64,000 nt of DNA, taken from assembly GCA_030770535.1 (NCBI GenBank), contig JASVEC010000029.1, positions 310,001 through 374,000 of the forward strand. Reading direction: 5' to 3'. The translations under genes and the position numbers were made by a program. A model generated the notes under the pieces. It searched no databases and was not told where the DNA came from. It saw only the letters and a list, made by a program, of their open reading frames with translations. Shown here piece after piece: positions 33,537 through 63,493 of the stretch; within the stretch, counting starts at the first letter, position 1; every line of letters begins with the position of its first letter. This stretch comes from Batkoa obscura (lineage: Eukaryota).

Positions 33537-34107
33537 ATTTATTGAAATTAAATTGTCGTTAATGCCTTTTCCTTAATAGCACAAATATCCTTTTTAAGGA
33601 GTGATAAGAGAGAAGGTAAATGATAGAGCCATGTTAGATAAGGGACGAGAGTAAAGCCATCAAAAATATCTTATGATAAGTGCCAAAATATTTGTAGTTT
33701 TCGACTTTTCATCTTGACTTAAAATTAATGTTTTCGTGGCACTAAGTTTAATTTTATCCGCATGTTTAATAATGATGAGGTTAAGGAATATTTAGAAGAA
33801 ATCACAAATGCACTTAGTAGCATATGAATTAAATATATTAATATAAGGTGTATCATTAACGTGATTACCCATTAATGTGATATTCAGTAACATACTGGGT
33901 GCTCTAACAAATGGGGGTATAGCTTTGTGTTTTTTTCTGAACTTTCAACCTCATATTTAGTTGCTAAAACCGAGATTTAAATTTATATTTACTTTGACCA
34001 CCACAATCAGTTATTCACTAAATAAAACCCATAATAACCGATCCCAAATTATAGTCAACTAAAATAGTGTGACTGAATATTTTTTTCGAAAAAAAGAGAA
34101 ATCCAAG

Positions 34108-35745
34108 ATGAGCAACCATTCAGCCTACAATTCACCATTAACTTCTCGTTATGCATCTAAAGAGATGTCTTACAACTTCTCAGATGACAAGAAATTTTCG
34201 ACTTGGAGAGCTCTTTGGTTAAACTTAGCTACTGCTGAGAAAGAACTTGGTATTGGGGGTATTACTGATGAAATCTTAAAAGAGATGAAAGATAATTTAG
34301 TAAGTGAAATATAACATAATTGATAAAATATTGAATCAGTTGTTAGACAAATATTGATTATACAATCGCCGCCGAGGAAGAAAAGCGTAGACGTCACGAT
34401 GTTATGGCTCACGTACACACTTTTTCGATTGCTTGTCCAAACGCAGCTCCAATCATTCATTTAGGAGCAACCTCATGCTTTGTTACCGATAACGCTGATC
34501 TTATTGTTCTAAGAGATGGGTTAGATTTACTTTTATCAAAACTTGTACCTGTTGTTGAGTCCTTAGCCAAATTTTCAGTTGATTATAAAGACTTACCAAC
34601 CCTTGGATTTACCCACTTTCAACCTGCCCAACTTACCACTGTCGGTAAAAGAGCTACTTTATGGTTACAGGTATTGCGATTGAAATTACAAAAGTAATTG
34701 TAAACTATAATTGTTATTTTAGGAACTTTTATGGGATCTTAGAAATATTGGTCGTGCTCGTAATGATCTTAGATTCCGTGGTGTTAAAGGTACTACAGGT
34801 ACTCAAGGATCTTTCCTTTCACTCTTCCAAGGTGATCATGAAAAGGTAAGCATCATAATATTGGCGATGATTTTTTAATTAAAGGAAATAGGTTGAAAAA
34901 CTTGACGAATTAGTAACTAAACTTAGTGGTTTTGAAGTACCATATGCTGTTACTGGTCAAACCTATTCCCGTAAAGTAGATATTGATGTTGTCAATTCTT
35001 TATCTTCTTTCGGCGCAACTGCTCATAAGATCGCTACTGATATTAGATTACTTGCTAACCTTAAAGAAATTGAAGAGCCATTTGAAAAGGATCAAATTGG
35101 CTCTTCTGCTATGGCTTATAAGCGCAATCCTATGCGTTGTGAACGTATATGTGCTTTAAGTAGACATTTAATGACTTTATCTGGTAATACATTAGCCACT
35201 GCTAGTGTACAATGGTTAGAACGTACTTTAGATGACTCTGCTAATCGTCGTATCACTTTGGCTGAATCATTTTTAACCGCAGATATTGTACTTACCATCC
35301 TTCAAAATGTGATTGAAGGTTTAGTCGTTTACCCACAAGTAATTCAAAGCCGTATCCAACAAGAATTACCATTCATGGCTACTGAAAACATTATCATGGC
35401 TATTGTTAAGGCTGGTGGTGACCGTCAAGTATGTCATGAAAAAATTCGAGTACTTTCTCACCAAGCAGCTTACGCTGTTAAAGCAGAAGGTAAACCAAAT
35501 AACTTGATCCAATTGGTTAAAGAAGATCCTTATTTCGAACCTGTTTGGGCACAGGTAATATATTATTGATTAAGTTTTTCGTTTTTTAACACTTTGATTA
35601 GCTTGATGAATTGTTAAGACCATCCACTTTTATTGGACGCGCACCTCAACAAGTGACTTCCTTTATAGAGAAAGAAGTTAAACCTGCTTTAGATAGTTAC
35701 CCACAATTCGTTGGTAAAAGATTTGATTCCAGTTTAAATGTTTAA
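34108..35745 (+). CDS. ADE13: Adenylosuccinate lyase, multi-exon
   Basis: [66 protein letters not shown] and [11 protein letters not shown]. Confidence 0.97.
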
Positions 35746-36035: not shown

Positions 36036-36127
36036 GGGGATATTTTTTTGGTTTCATCACTTTTTCCATCTTTTAAGCGCTATTTGAGCGGAAAAATTAG
36101 AAAATTCTTACAAAAAAATGCATCCCT
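36036..36127 (-). mobile_element. MITE copy, TSD AAAT
   Basis: AAAT-ggggatat...catccct-AAAT. Confidence 0.88.
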
Positions 36128-36330
36128 AAATGGTGTTTAGTTAAAATAAAATTTCAAACTATTATTTACTATAAATAATATCTGTTAAAAGTTTAAATAC
36201 ATTGAGAGAATTGAAAATCCAGTGTTTTATTCTTACTTCAACAACACCAATACACTAAAAAAAGCAATTTAAGTTCTCTTTATTTGATTCATTGGTTATA
36301 AACGATAGTATATGATATAGAATAACATAT

Positions 36331-36429
36331 GGGGATGTATTTTTATGTTTAAGAATTCTACTAACAATTTTTCCGCTCAAATAGCGCTTAAAAGATGGAA
36401 AAAGTGATGAAACCAAAAAAAACATACCT
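36331..36429 (+). mobile_element. MITE copy, TSD ATAT
   Basis: ATAT-ggggatgt...catacct-ATAT. Confidence 0.9.
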
Positions 36430-36719: not shown

Positions 36720-37652
36720 CTAATAAGGACCATTATTCCCCCAAATAGGCAAATTACCGATGATTGCATTAATCAAATTTTCATTTCCGTATCTATTTCT
36801 ATCACGATAGGATTTAGAAAGTTCAATATGAATACCACCACCATTTCTATTTGCCACATTCTTTTCATGAGTTCCAGCTAAATCGCTAACGTCATCCACT
36901 TCAATATCATTATTCACATAACGACATGAAGACACGTTATCTTGGTTTTTACAATAAACAACCTTTTCATTATTACCAATGGAATTCTGAATGTCTTTAG
37001 CAACCTTTTGGACGTTTTTATAACGACCTCCAACAATCACTTGAATATCACCTCTTCCGGCAAATCCATGCCATGAAACAATGAATTTGGATCTAATAAG
37101 GTTTGAAAGTTTAGTTGTATTAAAGATGGTGGCAGTGACATGCATAGCATTTGGATGACAAATTTGCTTTTTAACACAATTTTCTTTAATGGTATCAGGA
37201 CACCGAGACTTGTTAAACTTTTCGTTAATAACATTCTCAATTTTTTCACAGCAAATATTTTTATTACAGTTATCGGTTCGAATCTTATTACTAGTTTCTC
37301 CATTTATACTGCAATTAAAATTATAAAAGCTTGCATTATCGAGTCTGTTATATAACTTGTTTGCAAAGTTGTCTGAGTTTAACTCAATAAAACCCCCATG
37401 GATCGCAATTGATGCCACACTTTGACTAGAGATAGTCTCATCCTCACGGATACCAATGAATGGGATGCTTACTTGTCTGGAATTCGGATTAGCTCCGTGG
37501 ATGGCAAATGACATAGCCTTTTCTTGCCTTGGTTTAGTCTCAATAGTCTCGACTGCAGCGTTAGGATTTGCATTCATAGCATCACCAACATTGGTATAAA
37601 AATCAGCAGCAAAAATGGACGATAAGAGTAAATACACATTGAATAGCTTCAT
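36720..37652 (-). CDS. Secreted poly-gamma-glutamate hydrolase-like protein (PghP/DUF867 family)
   Basis: Signal peptide, then IAIHGGFIE, HVTATIFN, VSWHG, VIVGGR, LAGTHEKNVANRN and GIHIELSKSYR. No introns. Confidence 0.8.
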   Translation of the reverse strand: MKLFNVYLLLSSIFAADFYTNVGDAMNANPNAAVETIETKPRQEKAMSFAIHGANPNSRQVSIPFIGIREDETISSQSVASIAIHGGFIELNSDNFANKLYNRLDNASFYNFNCSINGETSNKIRTDNCNKNICCEKIENVINEKFNKSRCPDTIKENCVKKQICHPNAMHVTATIFNTTKLSNLIRSKFIVSWHGFAGRGDIQVIVGGRYKNVQKVAKDIQNSIGNNEKVVYCKNQDNVSSCRYVNNDIEVDDVSDLAGTHEKNVANRNGGGIHIELSKSYRDRNRYGNENLINAIIGNLPIWGNNGPY

Positions 37653-38147
37653 CCTTGATAAAAGTTAATTTCAAAAAACATTTTCTACTTTTTATAGTTG
37701 ACATTCTAAGATTTTTGTTTTATTGGCTATATTAGGATAAATTAATTTTGGAACTATTGGGTTTGACAACCTTTGAACCTACTTTTATTCTTATAACAAA
37801 GTATATACATAACTGCAACAAGAACATTCCAATTTTAAGCATTATCCGTAAAATAGCTCTAAATCCCATAGAAAACACAAAGTTATAAAATAGACGTGAT
37901 GACTTAGAGTCTTGAGATACTATCTAAAGAGTTTTATTTTATTAAAGTAGTGTAAAATGTTAAACTTGCTATCATTAGAATCAAGGGATGCCTCAAAACC
38001 ACTTTTTAAAAAAGGTAACTCATGAAAGCCATTTTAATCTTGATTATAAAAATTTATGCAGAAAAGTTAAAGTACTATCTTTCTACTTTATATCAAAGCA
38101 TTTAATCATGAATAGATTTTTTGTTATATATGTAATAATAGAAATAT

Positions 38148-38977
38148 AATCAAGAAGGCCTTTACCTCTTTGAAAAGGCAAGTTTTTAATGATTCCATTA
38201 ATCTTACCCTTATTTCCGTCCTTACACCTATCACGATAGGATTTAGAGAGCCCAATATGAATACTACTACCATTTCTATTTGTTACATCCTTTTTATGAA
38301 CTCCAGCCAATTCACCAATATCACCCACTTTGCTGTTGTTATCAACATAATAACAGAAAGGCGTATTTTTTTGGTATTTATAACAAACCACTCTATCATT
38401 ATAGCCAATAAAATCCTGAATGTTTTTAGCAACCTCTTGTACGTTACAATATCATCCCCTAACAACTACTTGAAAATCTCTTTTTTCGTTAAAGCCATCT
38501 GATGAAACAATAAACAGGTTTAATAAATTTTGAAAATTTAGTTATATTAAAAACAGTGGGGTAAATATACATAGCGTTTACTTGACAAACGTCTTTTTTA
38601 CTACAATATGTTCCAATGGGATCCGAACATTGGGAACTATCAATTTTTCATTTTCATTGCCATCAATATTTTGACAACAGACGCTTTTATACCAATTAGA
38701 AGTTCGAATATTTTTACTATCTTCATCACTTAATCTACAATTAAAATGATAAAAAACTCCATTACCAAGTCTATAAAATAGAAGTTTTGCAGTCATCGGA
38801 ATGTTTTTCAATAGCACCTCCATGGATTGCAATCGACGATACATATACTTGTTCAGGACCTTATATAATCTATTCAATTGCAACAAGAGGATTTGCATAT
38901 ATCGCATCATTGGCACTAGTATAAAAATCACCAGCAAAAACGGATGATAAAAGTAAGGATATTTTAAATAGTTTCAT
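38148..38977 (-). pseudogene. Pseudogene of the poly-gamma-glutamate hydrolase-like family
   Basis: Starts MKLFKISLLLSSVFAGDFYTS. Frameshifted fragments read IAIHGGAIE, FYHFNC and ELAGVHKKDVTNRNGSSIHIGLSKSYR. Confidence 0.88.
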
Positions 38978-39213
38978 TCTATAAAGTTAAATTTGGTTTA
39001 ATGAAAGTTGATGTTTCGATTTTTCATACCTCAAGCCTATCAATAATCCCATTTTGATGACTGTGTTAAACTAGATAAGCATTGATTAATTCGAGTCCAA
39101 TAAGATGTAAACAATTTAGCTGATTTTATATGTAAAAATGAATGTAGTAGCTGTTATTGCTATAGTTAGATTCTGCTTAATTTAAAAAGGTTAAATTGCA
39201 TAATTTGCGCTTA

Positions 39214-39436
39214 CCTTTACAGTTATTTAACTTTAAATATGCAGTATTTTCTATTAAATTAATTTAAACATGGGTTAGGCATTTTCAATTTTGTATTTGT
39301 TAAATAGAAAAATAGAAAAATAGAAAAACAGAAAAACCATCAACAATAAACAGCTATAAATTCAAAATGTCCAATCCATGTTTAAATTAATTTAATAGAA
39401 AATACTGCACGTTTAAAATTAAATAGCTGTAAAAGG
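39214..39436. mobile_element. Foldback/MITE-like element with ~80-bp inverted repeats
   Basis: cctttacagttatttaactttaaatatgcagtattttctattaaattaatttaaacatgg... is mirrored by ...ccatgtttaaattaatttaatagaaaatactgcacgtttaaaattaaatagctgtaaaagg. The core is (tagaaaaa)n. Confidence 0.75.
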
Positions 39437-39679
39437 CTATTTAAAGTTTATTTATTTTACGGCTGTTAAATCTAAAAGTGTACTTAAAATCCTATATTGA
39501 AAAAAGGTTCACTGCCATTAAAATATTTTCTAAAACAGATAGATAGTAAAGAACATCATAAGTATAAACATGGAAATTAATAAAAAGGTTAAAAAAAACC
39601 CGATATAGTGATACTTTACATCAAGGCATTTTATAATAAACAATGAATTTATTTTTCTTATGCAACCTTAAATATTAGA

Positions 39680-40510
39680 CTAATAAGAGCTATCACTATT
39701 ACGAATAGGCAAATTATTGATGATTGCATTAATCATCTTCTCATCTCCATCCTTATTTCTATTACGATAGGATCTAGACATTTCAATATGAATACCACCA
39801 CCATTTCTATTTGCCACATTCTTTTCATGAATTCCAGCCAATTCATCAATATCATCAACTTTACGATTGTCATTTACATAATAACAGTAAGGTGCATTGC
39901 CTCTATACTTGCAATAAACTACTTTATTTTTATTACCAATAGAATTTTGAATATCTCCAGCAACCTTTTGGATGTCATCATAACGACCTCCAACAATCAC
40001 TTGAATATCACCTCTTTCGGCAAACCCATGCCATGAAACAATAAACTTTGATTTAATAAGATTTGAAAATTTCTTAGAATCAAAAACAGTGGAAGTAACA
40101 TGCATTGCGTTTGGATGGCAAACTTGCTTTTTTGTGCATTCTTCTCTGCTATCTTTACATTGAGCTTTATCAAAATTTCCATTGTTGTCACCATCGATCT
40201 TTTTACAACAAATAGTTTTATAACAATTATTGGTTTCAATTCCATTGCTCATTTTCTCGTCTATACTACAATTGAAATTATAAAAAGCTGCATTATCAAG
40301 GCTGTCATATAACTTTTTCGCAAAGTTATCAGAATATTTTTCAATCGTACCACCATGGATTGCAATTGATGCTATATTTGGTCGTCTAGAGTTTCTATCA
40401 ACAACCTCTTTTACAGCGTCAGGATTTGCTTTCATGGCATCATTGGTGCTGGTATAAAAATCAGCTGCAAAAACAGATGATAAGAGTAAGGATAATTGGA
40501 ATACTTTCAT
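39680..40510 (-). CDS. Secreted poly-gamma-glutamate hydrolase-like protein (PghP/DUF867 family)
   Basis: Signal peptide MKVFQLSLLLSSVFA, then IAIHGGTIE, HVTSTVFD, VSWHG, VIVGGR, LAGIHEKNVANRN and GIHIEMSRSYR. No introns. Confidence 0.82.
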   Translation of the reverse strand: MKVFQLSLLLSSVFAADFYTSTNDAMKANPDAVKEVVDRNSRRPNIASIAIHGGTIEKYSDNFAKKLYDSLDNAAFYNFNCSIDEKMSNGIETNNCYKTICCKKIDGDNNGNFDKAQCKDSREECTKKQVCHPNAMHVTSTVFDSKKFSNLIKSKFIVSWHGFAERGDIQVIVGGRYDDIQKVAGDIQNSIGNKNKVVYCKYRGNAPYCYYVNDNRKVDDIDELAGIHEKNVANRNGGGIHIEMSRSYRNRNKDGDEKMINAIINNLPIRNSDSSY

Positions 40511-54656: not shown

Positions 54657-55573
54657 ATGAGTAGTAAAAAACTCAAATTAATTTTACGTAAAGTAGTTCA
54701 ACAAGTAGTGTCGATTGAACAATCAGAGGTGTAGGTAGCAGAGTACGACGTAGCATTGGTACTACTAAATTAAGAAACCTTGATCCCTTCTTGATGTTAG
54801 ATGAGTTTGATGTAAAATATCCAGGAGGCTTCCCTGATCATCCACATCGAGGATTTGAAACTGTATCTTATATATTCACTGGAAATAATCAACATGAAGA
54901 CTTTACTGGAAATCAAGGCATCATTGGACCAGGTGACTTACAATGGATGACTGCAGGAAAAGGAATAGTTCATGCAGAAATGCCATTACCACAATCTAAA
55001 GAACCAGTCACTGGTTTACAGTTATGGGTTAATTTACCAAAAAGAGAAAAAATGTGTGAACCTAGATATCAGGATTTCAAAGATAATGAAATACCTAGAG
55101 CAATACCAGAAGTAGGAGTAGAAATTAAAGTAATTGCTGGTGAAGCTTATGGAATTCAGTCATCTATTAAAACCAGTAATCCAGTTTATATAATAGATTT
55201 TAAAATGGAAGCAAATAAATCAGCTTATCAAATCTTACCAGCTGGATTTAATACTGCATTTATTTATACTATTAAAGGTCAAGTGGAAGTTGCACAAAAT
55301 GGAAAATTAGTTTTACCTCATACAACAATAGTATTTGATAAAGAAGGTGGGGATGAAGTTAATCAAATTTTAATTAATAGTCATAATGAAAAAGTTCATT
55401 TTATTTTGATTGCTGGTAAACCTATTAATGAACCTATTAAACAATATGGTCCTTTTGTTATGAATGATCAAGAAGGTATTAATAATGCTTTTTGGGATTA
55501 TCAGTTTAATAAAAATGGGTTTGAAAAAGCAAAGAACTGGAAGTCGATTATTGGAAGAAGAAGTTTTATTTAA
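54657..55573 (+). CDS. Pirin; apparent 1-nt deletion near 54728
   Basis: EQSE/GVGSRVRRSIG, LDPFLMLDEF, GFPDHPHRGFETV, QWMTAGKGIVHAEMP, LQLWVNLP and YGPFVMN. Confidence 0.9.
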
Positions 55574-61672: not shown

Positions 61673-63190
61673 CTAATTATTAATATTCTCTTCAATCCAT
61701 TTCAAAAAATAATATACTCTTGTAAATCCGGATGGAAACTGTTTATCTAAGCATTTAACACTTTCGACAAAGCCCATAATACCAATGATAATATCCCCCA
61801 CCAATAAAGGCCCCCCGGAATCCCCTTGACAACCAGAAATTTTTCCCTCTTTATAACCAGCACATAATATTTTCTCTTTATTTAAATCTAAGCCATATGC
61901 TTTACTACATAAATCAATATTATAAATTGAAAGTACTGCTTTTTTTAATTTCTTAGATAATAATTCTAAATTATTTGGATCCACTCGACCCCAACCAAGT
62001 AATGTAGCTTCAAGGTTTTGTTTAAATCCTAAATCTTTATTATCTAATTGATAGTATTTTTTTAATAAAATAGGTGAACTTAATTGAATAATACCAATAT
62101 CATATAATGGACTATTTGGTTTATATTGTTCATGATATTTAAATCGGGATACTTCATGAATATCATAGATACCATCGTTGTTAGTGCCCGTTGGTAGTGG
62201 GGTAAGAGAAGTAGCTATTGGGGTTGGAATAGAGCTGAATATGTTACTTACAGACGGATTAGTAATAAAAGTTTGATAGGTAGTAGTAGTAACAGTAGTA
62301 GCAGTAGTTGAAGTTTTCTTAGTTTTATGGTCTTTTTTTGATGCTTCCTTACTTTTTGATGCTTCTTTACTATTAGAAGCTTCTGAGTCTTTATCACCAG
62401 ATCGAGGTTGTTTGGCTTTGCTCGCTTTCTTTTCCTTTTTAGATTCTTCTTCTTCTTTCTTCTTCTTTTTATTCTTCTTCTTGTGATCCTTATTATCGTT
62501 ATCATCGTCATCGTCATCATCCTTATCTTTTTTATGTTTATCATCTTCATCATCTTCATCATCTTTGTTTTTATCCTTCTTCTTTTCATCACCTTTATCT
62601 TTCTTATGCTTATCATCTTCATCGTCATCTTCGTCGTCTTTATTTTTATCCTTCTTCTTTTTATCATATTTATCTTTCTTATGTTTATCATCTTCATCGT
62701 CACCTTCATCGTCATCTTCGTCGTCTTTATTTTTATCCTTCTTCTTTTTATCATCTTTATCTTTCTTATGTTTATCGTCATCATCATCCTTATCCTTTTT
62801 ATGTTTCTTATTGTCTTCCTTATCTTCCTTACCTTCCTTACCTTCCTTATCTTCCTTATCTTCCTTACCTTCCTTATCTTCCTTATCTTCCTTATCTTCC
62901 TTATCTTCCTCTTCCTCATCACGTCTTCTGCCCAATTTATTTTGATGTAAAGAATAAACCTCTAGTTTTCCAGTAATATTAAATATACAATGAGCCGCAG
63001 TAAGAATTATAGATTCACTAATTAAAGTACCACCACAAGTATGACTTCCGTTAACTCTTATTGATACCATAGGGGAATATTCATTCCATTTGGCTTCTTC
63101 TCCGCCTATGATTCGAGTTTCGATTTTTTCTGAATAGAAGATAGGGATGAGAATGGTTGTAAGGGTTAAAAGTAGGACAAATAGGTTCAT
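61673..63190 (-). CDS. Secreted S1A serine protease with a large Lys/Asp/Glu-rich insertion
   Basis: Signal peptide, R-IIGG, HTCGG, LTAAHC, YDIGII and CQGDSGGP. Frame stays open through the insert. Confidence 0.9.
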   Translation of the reverse strand: MNLFVLLLTLTTILIPIFYSEKIETRIIGGEEAKWNEYSPMVSIRVNGSHTCGGTLISESIILTAAHCIFNITGKLEVYSLHQNKLGRRRDEEEEDKEDKEDKEDKEGKEDKEDKEGKEGKEDKEDNKKHKKDKDDDDDKHKKDKDDKKKKDKNKDDEDDDEGDDEDDKHKKDKYDKKKKDKNKDDEDDDEDDKHKKDKGDEKKKDKNKDDEDDEDDKHKKDKDDDDDDDNDNKDHKKKNKKKKKEEEESKKEKKASKAKQPRSGDKDSEASNSKEASKSKEASKKDHKTKKTSTTATTVTTTTYQTFITNPSVSNIFSSIPTPIATSLTPLPTGTNNDGIYDIHEVSRFKYHEQYKPNSPLYDIGIIQLSSPILLKKYYQLDNKDLGFKQNLEATLLGWGRVDPNNLELLSKKLKKAVLSIYNIDLCSKAYGLDLNKEKILCAGYKEGKISGCQGDSGGPLLVGDIIIGIMGFVESVKCLDKQFPSGFTRVYYFLKWIEENINN

Positions 63191-63493
63191 TAGAGCTGGT
63201 TGTGATTGCTAATCAATAGCTGTGTGATTCTAAATTAATTTGTAAAGTTTGAATGAAGAAGCTTTTATATTATTGAGTAAGTTAATGAATAAATTATTAA
63301 TTCAATAGTTCCATTCTTTATTAAGATTACTAAATCTATAATGGATTTTTTGTATTTAGTTGTTTTACTTCTATTATTAAATGAAATTTAATATAGTTTT
63401 AGTTATTACATATAAGTTTGTAAATATTTTTTATTTTATAAACGGATAATTAATAGCTTAATAAAGATAGAAAGGAGAATTCTAAATGTATAT

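What the first reader, a model, noticed from the sequence alone, without database searches (positions are those of the whole stretch)
36720..40510. Tandem cluster of secreted, phage/bacterial-type poly-gamma-glutamate hydrolases in a fungal genome
Seen: three intronless tandem paralogs (two intact, one pseudogene) in an intron-rich genome. Each has a signal peptide, and the intact copies carry the ordered motifs IHGGxIE, HVT(S/A)TxF(D/N), VSWHG, VIVGG, LAGxHxKNVANR and GIHIE(L/M)SxSxR. Knowledge: these match the PghP / Gamma_PGA_hydro (DUF867, PF05908) Zn-peptidases of Bacillus phage and prophage-derived genes, where His and Glu of HGGxxE plus the SxHG His bind Zn and the late Glu is catalytic. 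All four residues are present in both intact copies. Inference: a horizontally acquired gene was fitted for secretion and amplified, perhaps to strip or feed on bacterial gamma-PGA capsule or slime. Sporadic fungal homologs may already be known, so novelty must be checked.
Basis: partly seen in the sequence, partly recalled or inferred. Interest (0 to 1): 0.9.

Follow-up and report, generated by a model that had tools for sequence, protein, structure and literature searches.

The report
Fungus's borrowed bacterial-slime-cutting enzymes
This soil and insect-infecting fungus carries two intact genes and one dead copy of an enzyme family otherwise typical of bacteria and phages; the proteins are predicted to be secreted and to cut the polyglutamate slime of bacteria, and were likely acquired long ago and remodelled with a cysteine-rich insert.

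Summary
Observation confirmed. Three tandem minus-strand paralogs are present: two intact (36720-37652, 39680-40510) and one pseudogene (about 38150-38977). Both intact copies pass Pfam PF05908, and their predicted folds match PghP/YndL (copy C: Z 23, rmsd 1.9 A). Both keep the three zinc ligands, the catalytic Glu and the essential Arg.

The nearest named proteins are from Neoconidiobolus thromboides (91-92%). Conidiobolus coronatus, in another family, has two homologues (about 30%). Ten such proteins form one clade (100/99) sharing a short leader peptide and a 50-70-residue cysteine-rich insert, seen in none of 167 comparison rows. So the transfer is ancient, not recent. The donor is unresolved, and a phage donor is neither shown nor rejected. 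Many bacterial homologues already carry leader peptides.

Contigs from relatives' runs, some splicing the neighbouring ADE13, cover both genes unspliced. Activity is untested. Aureobasidium homologues were listed in 2015. I found no report of this clade, and a secretome survey of both species counted zero M86.

Verdict: new variant of a known enzyme family; interest 0.5.

The parts
36720..37652 (-). Copy A: intact PF05908/M86 gene, 310 aa; Zn ligands H85, E90, H195; catalytic E277; R283; PghL Ser80 position is Ala
   Evidence: 92% identical to N. thromboides K502DRAFT_325792
37608..37652 (-). Copy A predicted signal peptide (codons 1-15)
   Evidence: hydropathy script; inference, no dedicated predictor
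37420..37518 (-). 33-codon internal duplication in copy A (degenerate AIHGA repeat ahead of the real AIHGG); loops out in the model
   Evidence: also present in the N. thromboides orthologue P0004
38150..38977 (-). Copy B: pseudogene with three frameshifts, three in-frame stops and loss of six key residues; ends approximate
   Evidence: further indels and about 16% divergence in other runs
39680..40510 (-). Copy C: intact PF05908/M86 gene, 276 aa; Zn ligands H52, E57, H161; substrate-site H137, T139, S140, N231, R249; catalytic E243
   Evidence: 91% identical to N. thromboides K502DRAFT_356326
40466..40510 (-). Copy C predicted signal peptide (codons 1-15)
   Evidence: inference
40115..40267 (-). 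Insert 1 of copy C (about residues 82-132): six Cys conserved in all 10 fungal-type proteins; lies just before the H137-x-T-S motif
   Evidence: pLDDT 45-65, so its structure is unknown
39845..39925 (-). Insert 2 of copy C (about residues 196-222): two conserved Cys, predicted beta-hairpin ahead of the AGxHxKN loop
36043..36421 (.). MITE-like element (56-nt perfect inverted repeats) between ADE13 and copy A; breaks contigs there
34097..35735 (+). Flanking adenylosuccinate lyase (ADE13) gene, part seen in transcript contigs, with four GT-AG introns; context, not part of the cluster

Best explanation
Copies A and C are intact PghP/PghL-family (PF05908, MEROPS M86) zinc-peptidase genes, predicted to encode secreted endo-hydrolases that likely cut L-glutamate-rich stretches of bacterial poly-gamma-glutamate in soil, litter or insect cadavers. 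Shown: family, conserved active-site residues, tandem arrangement, one pseudogene, and a shared clade with C. coronatus. Predicted: the fold. Inferred from PghL: Zn held by H52/E57/H161 activates water, E243 is the general base, and H137/T139/S140/N231/R249 anchor the polymer's free carboxylates, releasing gamma-Glu dimers and trimers. Inferred further: a secreted gamma-glutamyltransferase would finish these to glutamate, giving food and clearing slime. The gene likely came once from a prokaryote into a saprotrophic ancestor of Conidiobolaceae and Neoconidiobolaceae, gained a cysteine-rich (likely disulfide-bonded) insert on a cleft loop, and duplicated separately in each lineage.
For: Pfam 53.9 and 61.1 bits against cut-off 22; PHROG 4175 for 4 of 4 proteins. 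VIA-align Z 23.2 to PghP 3a9l (rmsd 1.9 A, 183 residues) and 22.8 to YndL 5onj, next hit 11.3; Foldseek top three are PghP-family entries for both models. PghL residues H41, E46, H102, H77, T79, S80, N151, E165, R171 (PMC6506827) map to H52, E57, H161, H137, T139, S140, N231, E243, R249; eight of these nine are invariant in 10 of 10 fungal-type proteins, and S140 is Ala in 2 of 10 as in 10 of 113 others. R171S abolished PghL activity in that paper. Purifying selection: dN/dS 0.29 between A and C, and 12 of the 18 listed strain differences in A are silent; B diverges about twice as fast (108 of 675 against 37 of 548 in run X12). Runs whose contigs splice ADE13 cover A and C without gaps of intron size (X6; X7). 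One clade at 100/99 and 100/100. These families are mostly soil saprobes with saprotrophic ancestors (PMC10386553; PMC9409958). Table S8 of PMC9391592 lists secreted T03 (GGT) counts of 1 and 2 for the two species (columns counted by eye).
Against: No activity data. Three side-chain contacts of PghL are not kept: N73 (Pro/Leu), S74 (Asn), T168 (Arg/Lys and others), although T168 is Thr in only 34 of 113 other homologues. Copy A has Ala at the Ser80 position. Both inserts sit in the loops that PMC6506827 names as forming the cleft, and insert 1 is not modelled with confidence (pLDDT under 65), so specificity may have changed. Identity to characterised enzymes is only 21-25% structurally. GGT is also listed for E. 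muscae and Z. radicans, so it is not specific support. The tree is unrooted and the fungal branch is long, so transfer rests on distribution, not on nesting. The searches did not return the known Aureobasidium homologues, so they are not a full census of eukaryotes.
Confidence: 0.6

Rival explanations
1. The enzymes are active zinc gamma-glutamyl hydrolases whose main natural substrate is not bacterial gamma-PGA but another gamma-linked L-glutamate chain, such as folate polyglutamate tails in insect or plant material. The inserts would adapt the cleft to the head group.
For: PghL binds six L-glutamates and cuts only L stretches (PMC6506827), chemistry that folylpolyglutamates share (my knowledge). 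Both inserts lie in cleft loops and are conserved in 10 of 10 proteins. Table S8 of PMC9391592 lists no secreted C26 gamma-glutamyl hydrolase for either species (counted by eye).
Against: The two family members whose assays I read act on gamma-PGA. No folate activity was seen in the passages read. That table misses these very genes under M86, so its zeros are unreliable.
Confidence: 0.2
2. The proteins act during insect infection on a host substrate (for example gamma-glutamyl isopeptide cross-links in haemolymph clots), or the cysteine-rich insert is a host-binding module.
For: N. thromboides and C. coronatus are the two broad-host-range insect pathogens of their families. Short cysteine-rich secreted modules are typical of fungal effectors (my knowledge).
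Against: The carboxylate-anchoring residues, including R249, are kept, and protein-bound isopeptides lack the repeating free alpha-carboxylates they bind (inference). The only sequenced carriers may simply be the pathogens that were chosen for sequencing.
Confidence: 0.1
3. The gene is not a transfer into Entomophthorales but an old fungal or eukaryotic inheritance lost in most lineages.
For: The fungal stem is long (1.2-1.45 changes per site) and no donor is resolved. Other fungi have family members (Aureobasidium; an M86 column exists in Table S8 of PMC9391592). GC and GC3 are close to host values (0.32-0.35 and 0.23-0.29 against 0.36-0.38 and 0.18-0.22).
Against: A full phmmer scan of 1.84 billion representatives gave 18 hits, of which only three carry the insert; the profile search gave 8, all of this clade. 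All named members are Entomophthorales. The family is broad in bacteria (54 loci over many phyla) and was 3 of 261 organisms in eukaryotes in 2015.
Confidence: 0.08
4. The cluster is bacterial or phage contamination in the assembly.
For: No listed contig spans ADE13 to copy A; contigs break at the MITE.
Against: Three DNA runs from three studies hold the cluster with strain differences, at contig depths like those of ADE13 (X9 431-452 against 447; X10 38-46 against 42). Spliced-RNA runs cover it. Orthologues lie on fungal scaffolds of 37-142 kb in two species. A pseudogene and MITEs are interleaved.
Confidence: 0.01

Closest known systems
PghP of Bacillus phage phiNIT1 (PDB 3a9l; MEROPS M86.001) and the phage PM1 enzyme (PDB 21dc)
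   Same: Fold (Z 23.2, rmsd 1.9 A over 183 residues); His/Glu/His zinc site; catalytic Glu; His-x-Thr-Ser motif
   Different: 21% identity; N-terminal leader; 50-70-residue Cys-rich insert and a 20-30-residue second insert; fungal chromosome, tandem copies, no phage genes around
PghL/YndL of Bacillus subtilis (PDB 5onj; PMC6506827)
   Same: Z 22.8; nine of nine key residues in copy C including the essential Arg171 equivalent
   Different: N73, S74 and T168 contacts not kept; both cleft loops expanded; copy A has Ala for Ser80; activity and stereospecificity untested
PghP-like proteins of Aureobasidium melanogenum and A. namibiae (KEQ57754.1, KEQ75168.1; PMC4497714 S1 Table)
   Same: Fungal carriers of the family, with the same proposed benefit (feeding on soil gamma-PGA)
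   Different: Ascomycetes, found by BLAST with PghP in 2015 and not returned by my searches; I did not see their sequences, so shared origin or inserts were not tested
Secreted long-loop bacterial PF05908 proteins (Scytonema, Chroococcopsis, Pyrinomonadaceae, Kofleriaceae; L046-L059 subset, P0125)
   Same: Hydrophobic leaders; both cleft loops lengthened with Cys (second loop 59-85 residues against 71-79 in fungi); highest mean profile score on the fungal set (57 bits)
   Different: First loop only 41-50 residues with one Cys against 81-104 with six or seven; not joined to the fungal clade in the free trees; AU p 0.44
Gamma-PGA endohydrolase of Myrothecium sp. TM-4222 (Tanaka et al. 1993, doi 10.1271/bbb.57.1809)
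   Same: A fungus with gamma-PGA endohydrolase activity, by its title
   Different: Seen only as a reference-list title; its protein family is unknown to me

Membership tests
PF05908 / MEROPS M86 (PghP family) | Score above the Pfam gathering threshold | tested here: met
   53.9 and 61.1 bits against 22
PF05908 / MEROPS M86 (PghP family) | Zinc ligands His41, Glu46, His102 (PghL numbering) | tested here: met
   H52/E57/H161 in C, H85/E90/H195 in A; 10 of 10 fungal-type proteins
PF05908 / MEROPS M86 (PghP family) | Catalytic Glu165 at the end of strand 7 | tested here: met
   E243 in C, E277 in A, on the last predicted strand
PF05908 / MEROPS M86 (PghP family) | Gamma-PGA anchoring residues His77, Thr79, Ser80, Arg171 (and Asn151) | tested here: met
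   All in C; A has Ala at Ser80, a variant in 10 of 113 other homologues
PF05908 / MEROPS M86 (PghP family) | Further side-chain contacts Asn73, Ser74, Thr168 | tested here: inconclusive
   Not kept in the fungal proteins, but also variable among the 113 others (Thr168 in 34), so not family-defining
PF05908 / MEROPS M86 (PghP family) | PghP alpha/beta fold | tested here: met
   Predicted models; Z 23.2 and 22.8, next 11.3; Foldseek E 6.6e-10 (C) and 3.0e-8 (A)
PF05908 / MEROPS M86 (PghP family) | Zn-dependent endo-hydrolysis of gamma-L/DL-PGA | not testable with these tools
   needs an enzyme assay
Phage- or prophage-derived pghP genes | Phage context, or nesting among Bacillus and phage sequences | tested here: inconclusive
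   No phage gene among 34 window frames scanned with Pfam; outside the Bacillus/phage clade in free trees but AU p 0.31 and 0.37 do not reject it
Horizontally acquired gene (prokaryote to fungus) | Patchy eukaryotic distribution and nesting within a prokaryotic clade | tested here: inconclusive
   Patchy distribution fits; nesting not shown, tree unrooted, long stem, donor unresolved
M14 carboxypeptidases / N-formylglutamate amidohydrolases | Best structural and profile match to those families | tested here: not met
   Z 9-11 against 23 for PghP; no such Pfam hit

The most novel reading that the evidence does not exclude
Conidiobolus-like fungi own an ancient, lineage-specific M86 subfamily in which a disulfide-stapled lid over the substrate cleft changes what the enzyme does: it binds slime processively or accepts D-glutamate-containing stretches that PghL cannot cut. 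It would be a fungal weapon that strips the gamma-PGA shield from competing bacteria in litter and insect cadavers.
Probability: 0.15. Interest if true: 0.85.

Novelty: new variant of a known kind. Interest (0 to 1): 0.5.

Why it matters
It gives named, testable genes for fungal breakdown of bacterial poly-gamma-glutamate, an activity reported for a fungus in 1993 (title only) and a gene family listed for fungi in 2015 but, in the papers I could search, not described for Entomophthorales. It points to a bacterium-directed trait in fungi that are studied mainly as insect pathogens. It is a probable ancient transfer absent from a survey of transfers that included C. coronatus and scored zero in a secretome survey of both species. 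The conserved cysteine-rich insert on the cleft is a natural experiment in M86 specificity, and a secreted, likely disulfide-stabilised gamma-PGA hydrolase could be useful for polymer processing or biofilm removal. It is not a new kind of system: family and chemistry are known.

Tried and rejected
No whole genome is held, so further copies elsewhere in this genome, a pgsB-type synthase, GGT and C26 genes were not checked. Two metagenome scans, one viral scan and one genome scan with P0125 found no locus; could not run on alignment A1. NCBIfam gave no hit for 4 of 4 proteins. BFVD's best matches were ordinary PghP proteins. The ESM Atlas gave only bacterial-type PF05908 clusters. No RNA holder is on record; RNA status of X1, X2, X6 and X7 is inferred from spliced ADE13 contigs, and X12 showed no listed splice joint. 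Contig depth was not used to rank expression. No listed contig bridges ADE13 to copy A. Donor tests were inconclusive, and those groups were named after seeing trees; the 'bdello' profile group is biased because four of its nine members were top hits of copy C. FastTree paired the clade with P0125 (85), but IQ-TREE did not. Loss in obligate pathogens (E. muscae, Z. radicans) could not be tested: no homologue from them was returned, but I did not confirm that their proteomes are in those libraries, and Table S8 scores the known positives as zero. Rows left out: P0112 (repeat protein, spurious hit) and six fragments from the 123-row tree; subsets of 51, 88 and 45 rows were used. One search crashed part-way and was redone. 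One search was an uninformative comparison. No complex was predicted. Disulfide geometry could not be read because model coordinates are not provided.
Full report
1. Observation. The three copies are there, all on the minus strand. Copy A is 36720-37652 (310 aa) and copy C is 39680-40510 (276 aa). Copy B starts at 38977 and is traced by tblastn to about 38158 in two frames. It has three frameshifting deletions, three stops, and has lost H137, T139, S140, H161, N231 and E243. Pairwise DNA identity is 69-76%. Pfam PF05908 scores 53.9 and 61.1 bits against a cut-off of 22, PHROG 4175 agrees, and the best PDB sequence hit is YndL (E 1.6e-6). Each copy starts with a 15-residue hydrophobic leader that ends just before the conserved core Asp (heuristic only). 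Copy A carries a 33-residue internal duplication that loops out of the model.

2. Host and context. The nearest proteins are two hypothetical proteins of Neoconidiobolus thromboides FSU 785, 91% and 92% identical to C and A. The window is therefore from that species or a close relative (inference). Neighbours are eukaryotic: ADE13, a PAK-type kinase, kinesin, an F-box protein, trypsins. Eight of 12 listed runs were laid. DNA runs X3, X9 and X10, from three studies, hold the cluster with strain differences; in X9 and X10 contig depths over the copies match ADE13. Contigs of X1, X2 and X6 skip four GT-AG introns of ADE13, and X7 skips the last one, so these runs behave as RNA. X6 and X7 each have single contigs across most of A and of C with no intron-sized gap. 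This shows presence in transcript assemblies of relatives, not expression level. One allele in X1 and X2 is identical to the window over about 320 bases, so those runs may not be independent. No listed contig bridges ADE13 to A; all break at a MITE at 36043-36421. Contamination is rejected on the sum of this evidence. A and C are under purifying selection (dN/dS 0.29; 12 of 18 listed differences silent, from a list cut to the best-supported 40 rows), while B diverges about twice as fast and has further indels.

3. Structure and active site. AlphaFold models have mean pLDDT 82.8 (C) and 77.8 (A). Against 48,161 chains, C matches PghP at Z 23.2 (rmsd 1.9 A, 183 residues) and YndL at 22.8, the next fold at 11.3. 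Foldseek agrees for both models. From PMC6506827 (parts 1-3 of 6 read): His41, Glu46 and His102 bind zinc, Glu165 is catalytic, His77, Thr79, Ser80, Asn151 and Arg171 bind the polymer, R171S kills activity, and the enzyme cuts L stretches into dimers and trimers. Copy C has all nine residues. Across ten fungal-type proteins eight are invariant and Ser80 is Ala in two, including copy A; Asn73, Ser74 and Thr168 are not kept.

4. The distinctive feature. The span from the zinc Glu to His77 is 81-104 residues with six or seven Cys in the ten proteins. It is at most 50 in the 113 other rows of the first alignment and at most 46 in the 54 genome-locus proteins. The span from His102 to Asn151 is 71-79 against a median of 49. 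Six Cys of insert 1 and two of insert 2 are invariant in 10 of 10. By alignment these inserts fall in the two loops that the PghL paper names as forming the cleft (inference). Insert 2 is modelled as a hairpin with high confidence, insert 1 is not. Disulfides are inferred from Cys conservation and the leader, not shown.

5. Distribution and origin. A full scan of 1.84 billion representatives gave 18 hits, three with the insert. A profile search gave eight proteins: two from N. thromboides, two from Conidiobolus coronatus NRRL 28638 (CONCODRAFT_170587 and _170031, on different scaffolds) and four from unnamed JGI contigs. Identity between the two groups is 27-32%. The species belong to different families, and Neoconidiobolaceae lies next to Batkoaceae and Entomophthoraceae (PMC9409958, passages). 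The ten form one clade (99 in FastTree with 123 rows; 100/99 in IQ-TREE with 51 rows; 98 with 88 rows), with paralogs grouping by lineage. So there was one old gain and separate duplications afterwards (inference). GC and GC3 are near host values. The donor is unresolved. Free trees place the clade near secreted Bdellovibrionota-like proteins and outside the Bacillus/phage group, with a long-branch warning, and AU tests reject neither a Bacillus/phage sister (p 0.31, 0.37) nor the long-loop cyanobacterial/acidobacterial group (p 0.44). Many bacterial homologues begin with hydrophobic leaders (by eye), so secretion need not be a fungal addition. Transfer from a prokaryote is the likeliest origin because the family spans many bacterial phyla and is rare in eukaryotes (3 of 261 organisms), but nesting was not shown.

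6. Mechanism. Most likely (0.6) these are secreted zinc endo-hydrolases of bacterial gamma-PGA that release gamma-Glu oligomers, finished by secreted GGT (T03 counts 1 and 2 in Table S8 of PMC9391592, eight rows seen, columns counted by eye). This fits families that are mostly soil saprobes (PMC10386553, passages). Shown: family, residues, selection, clade. Predicted: fold and secretion. Inferred: substrate and ecological role. Rivals are another gamma-L-glutamyl substrate such as folate tails (0.2), an insect-host substrate (0.1), old vertical inheritance (0.08, a rival on origin only) and contamination (0.01).

7. What is known. PMC4497714 (part 1 of 6, passages, and rows of S1 Table) lists PghP-like proteins in two Aureobasidium species and Ricinus, and proposes feeding on soil gamma-PGA. 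A 1993 title reports gamma-PGA endohydrolase from Myrothecium (reference list only). The Entomophthorales proteins are deposited as hypothetical, with PF05908 precomputed in the collection searched. I found no description of them: paper searches; passages of PMC11291939, PMC12387763, PMC8778642, PMC11105155 and PMC9391592; term searches of supplements. Table S8 of PMC9391592 gives M86 as zero for both species, although the column exists, so another genome in that survey presumably has a hit that I did not identify. The library lacks most subscription journals and bioRxiv supplements were closed, so absence from print is not proven. The scan's own notes held no look-alike DNA; one note on a bacterial PghP-like protein did not affect my reading.

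8. Verdict. A real, intact and selected gene cluster; a member of PF05908/M86 by every sequence and predicted-structure test available; a new variant through its conserved cysteine-rich cleft insert and its old restriction to Conidiobolus-like fungi. Recent gain, phage donor and added secretion are not shown. Interest 0.5; it would be 0.85 if the insert proves to change specificity.

Noticed in passing
window:36043-36421: MITE-like element with 56-nt perfect terminal inverted repeats; thousands of contig pieces of DNA runs fall on it, so it is a high-copy family. In runs X9, X10 and X12 the joint beside it differs from the window.
   Followed up: partly
window:39216-39433: Second inverted-repeat element (76-nt arms, 89% complementary) between copies B and C, with raised contig depth in DNA runs.
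   Followed up: no
window:60485-61381 (-): 299-codon frame with an ISXO2-like DDE transposase domain (PF12762, E 1.2e-8); from recall this is the Merlin type of eukaryotic DNA transposon, a possible MITE mobiliser.
   Followed up: no
window:11502-13132 (-): POT/PTR2 di- and tripeptide transporter gene about 24 kb from the cluster; it could import small peptides, but the proximity may be chance.
   Followed up: no
window:55833-56804 and 61676-63208 (-): Two trypsin-family protease genes, the second with a long repetitive stretch and overlapping frames.
   Followed up: no
window:36741: In runs X9, X10, X12 and X7 a C>T change turns W304 of copy A into a stop, shortening the tail by seven residues; the N. 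thromboides orthologue also ends at residue 303.
   Followed up: partly
window:38100-38950: Pseudogene B is partly covered by contigs of runs taken to be RNA, so it may still be transcribed; DNA carry-over is not excluded.
   Followed up: no
window:2134-2505 (+) and 54719-55570 (+): DUF952 and pirin genes, families also common in bacteria (recall); origin not examined.
   Followed up: no
L013, L016-L023, L025, L027, L034, L036, L038 (match near 2001-2550 in most): Most Elusimicrobiota PF05908 proteins have Leu at the Arg171 position that is essential in PghL, suggesting another substrate or specificity.
   Followed up: no
L048, L049, L052, L053, L056, L059: A clade of cyanobacterial and acidobacterial PF05908 proteins with Cys-bearing long cleft loops; a second, bacterial remodelling of the same loops.
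   Followed up: partly
L001:619-1701: Staphylococcus phage Alsa_4 gene annotated as glycerophosphoryl diester phosphodiesterase begins with a PghP-like domain.
   Followed up: no
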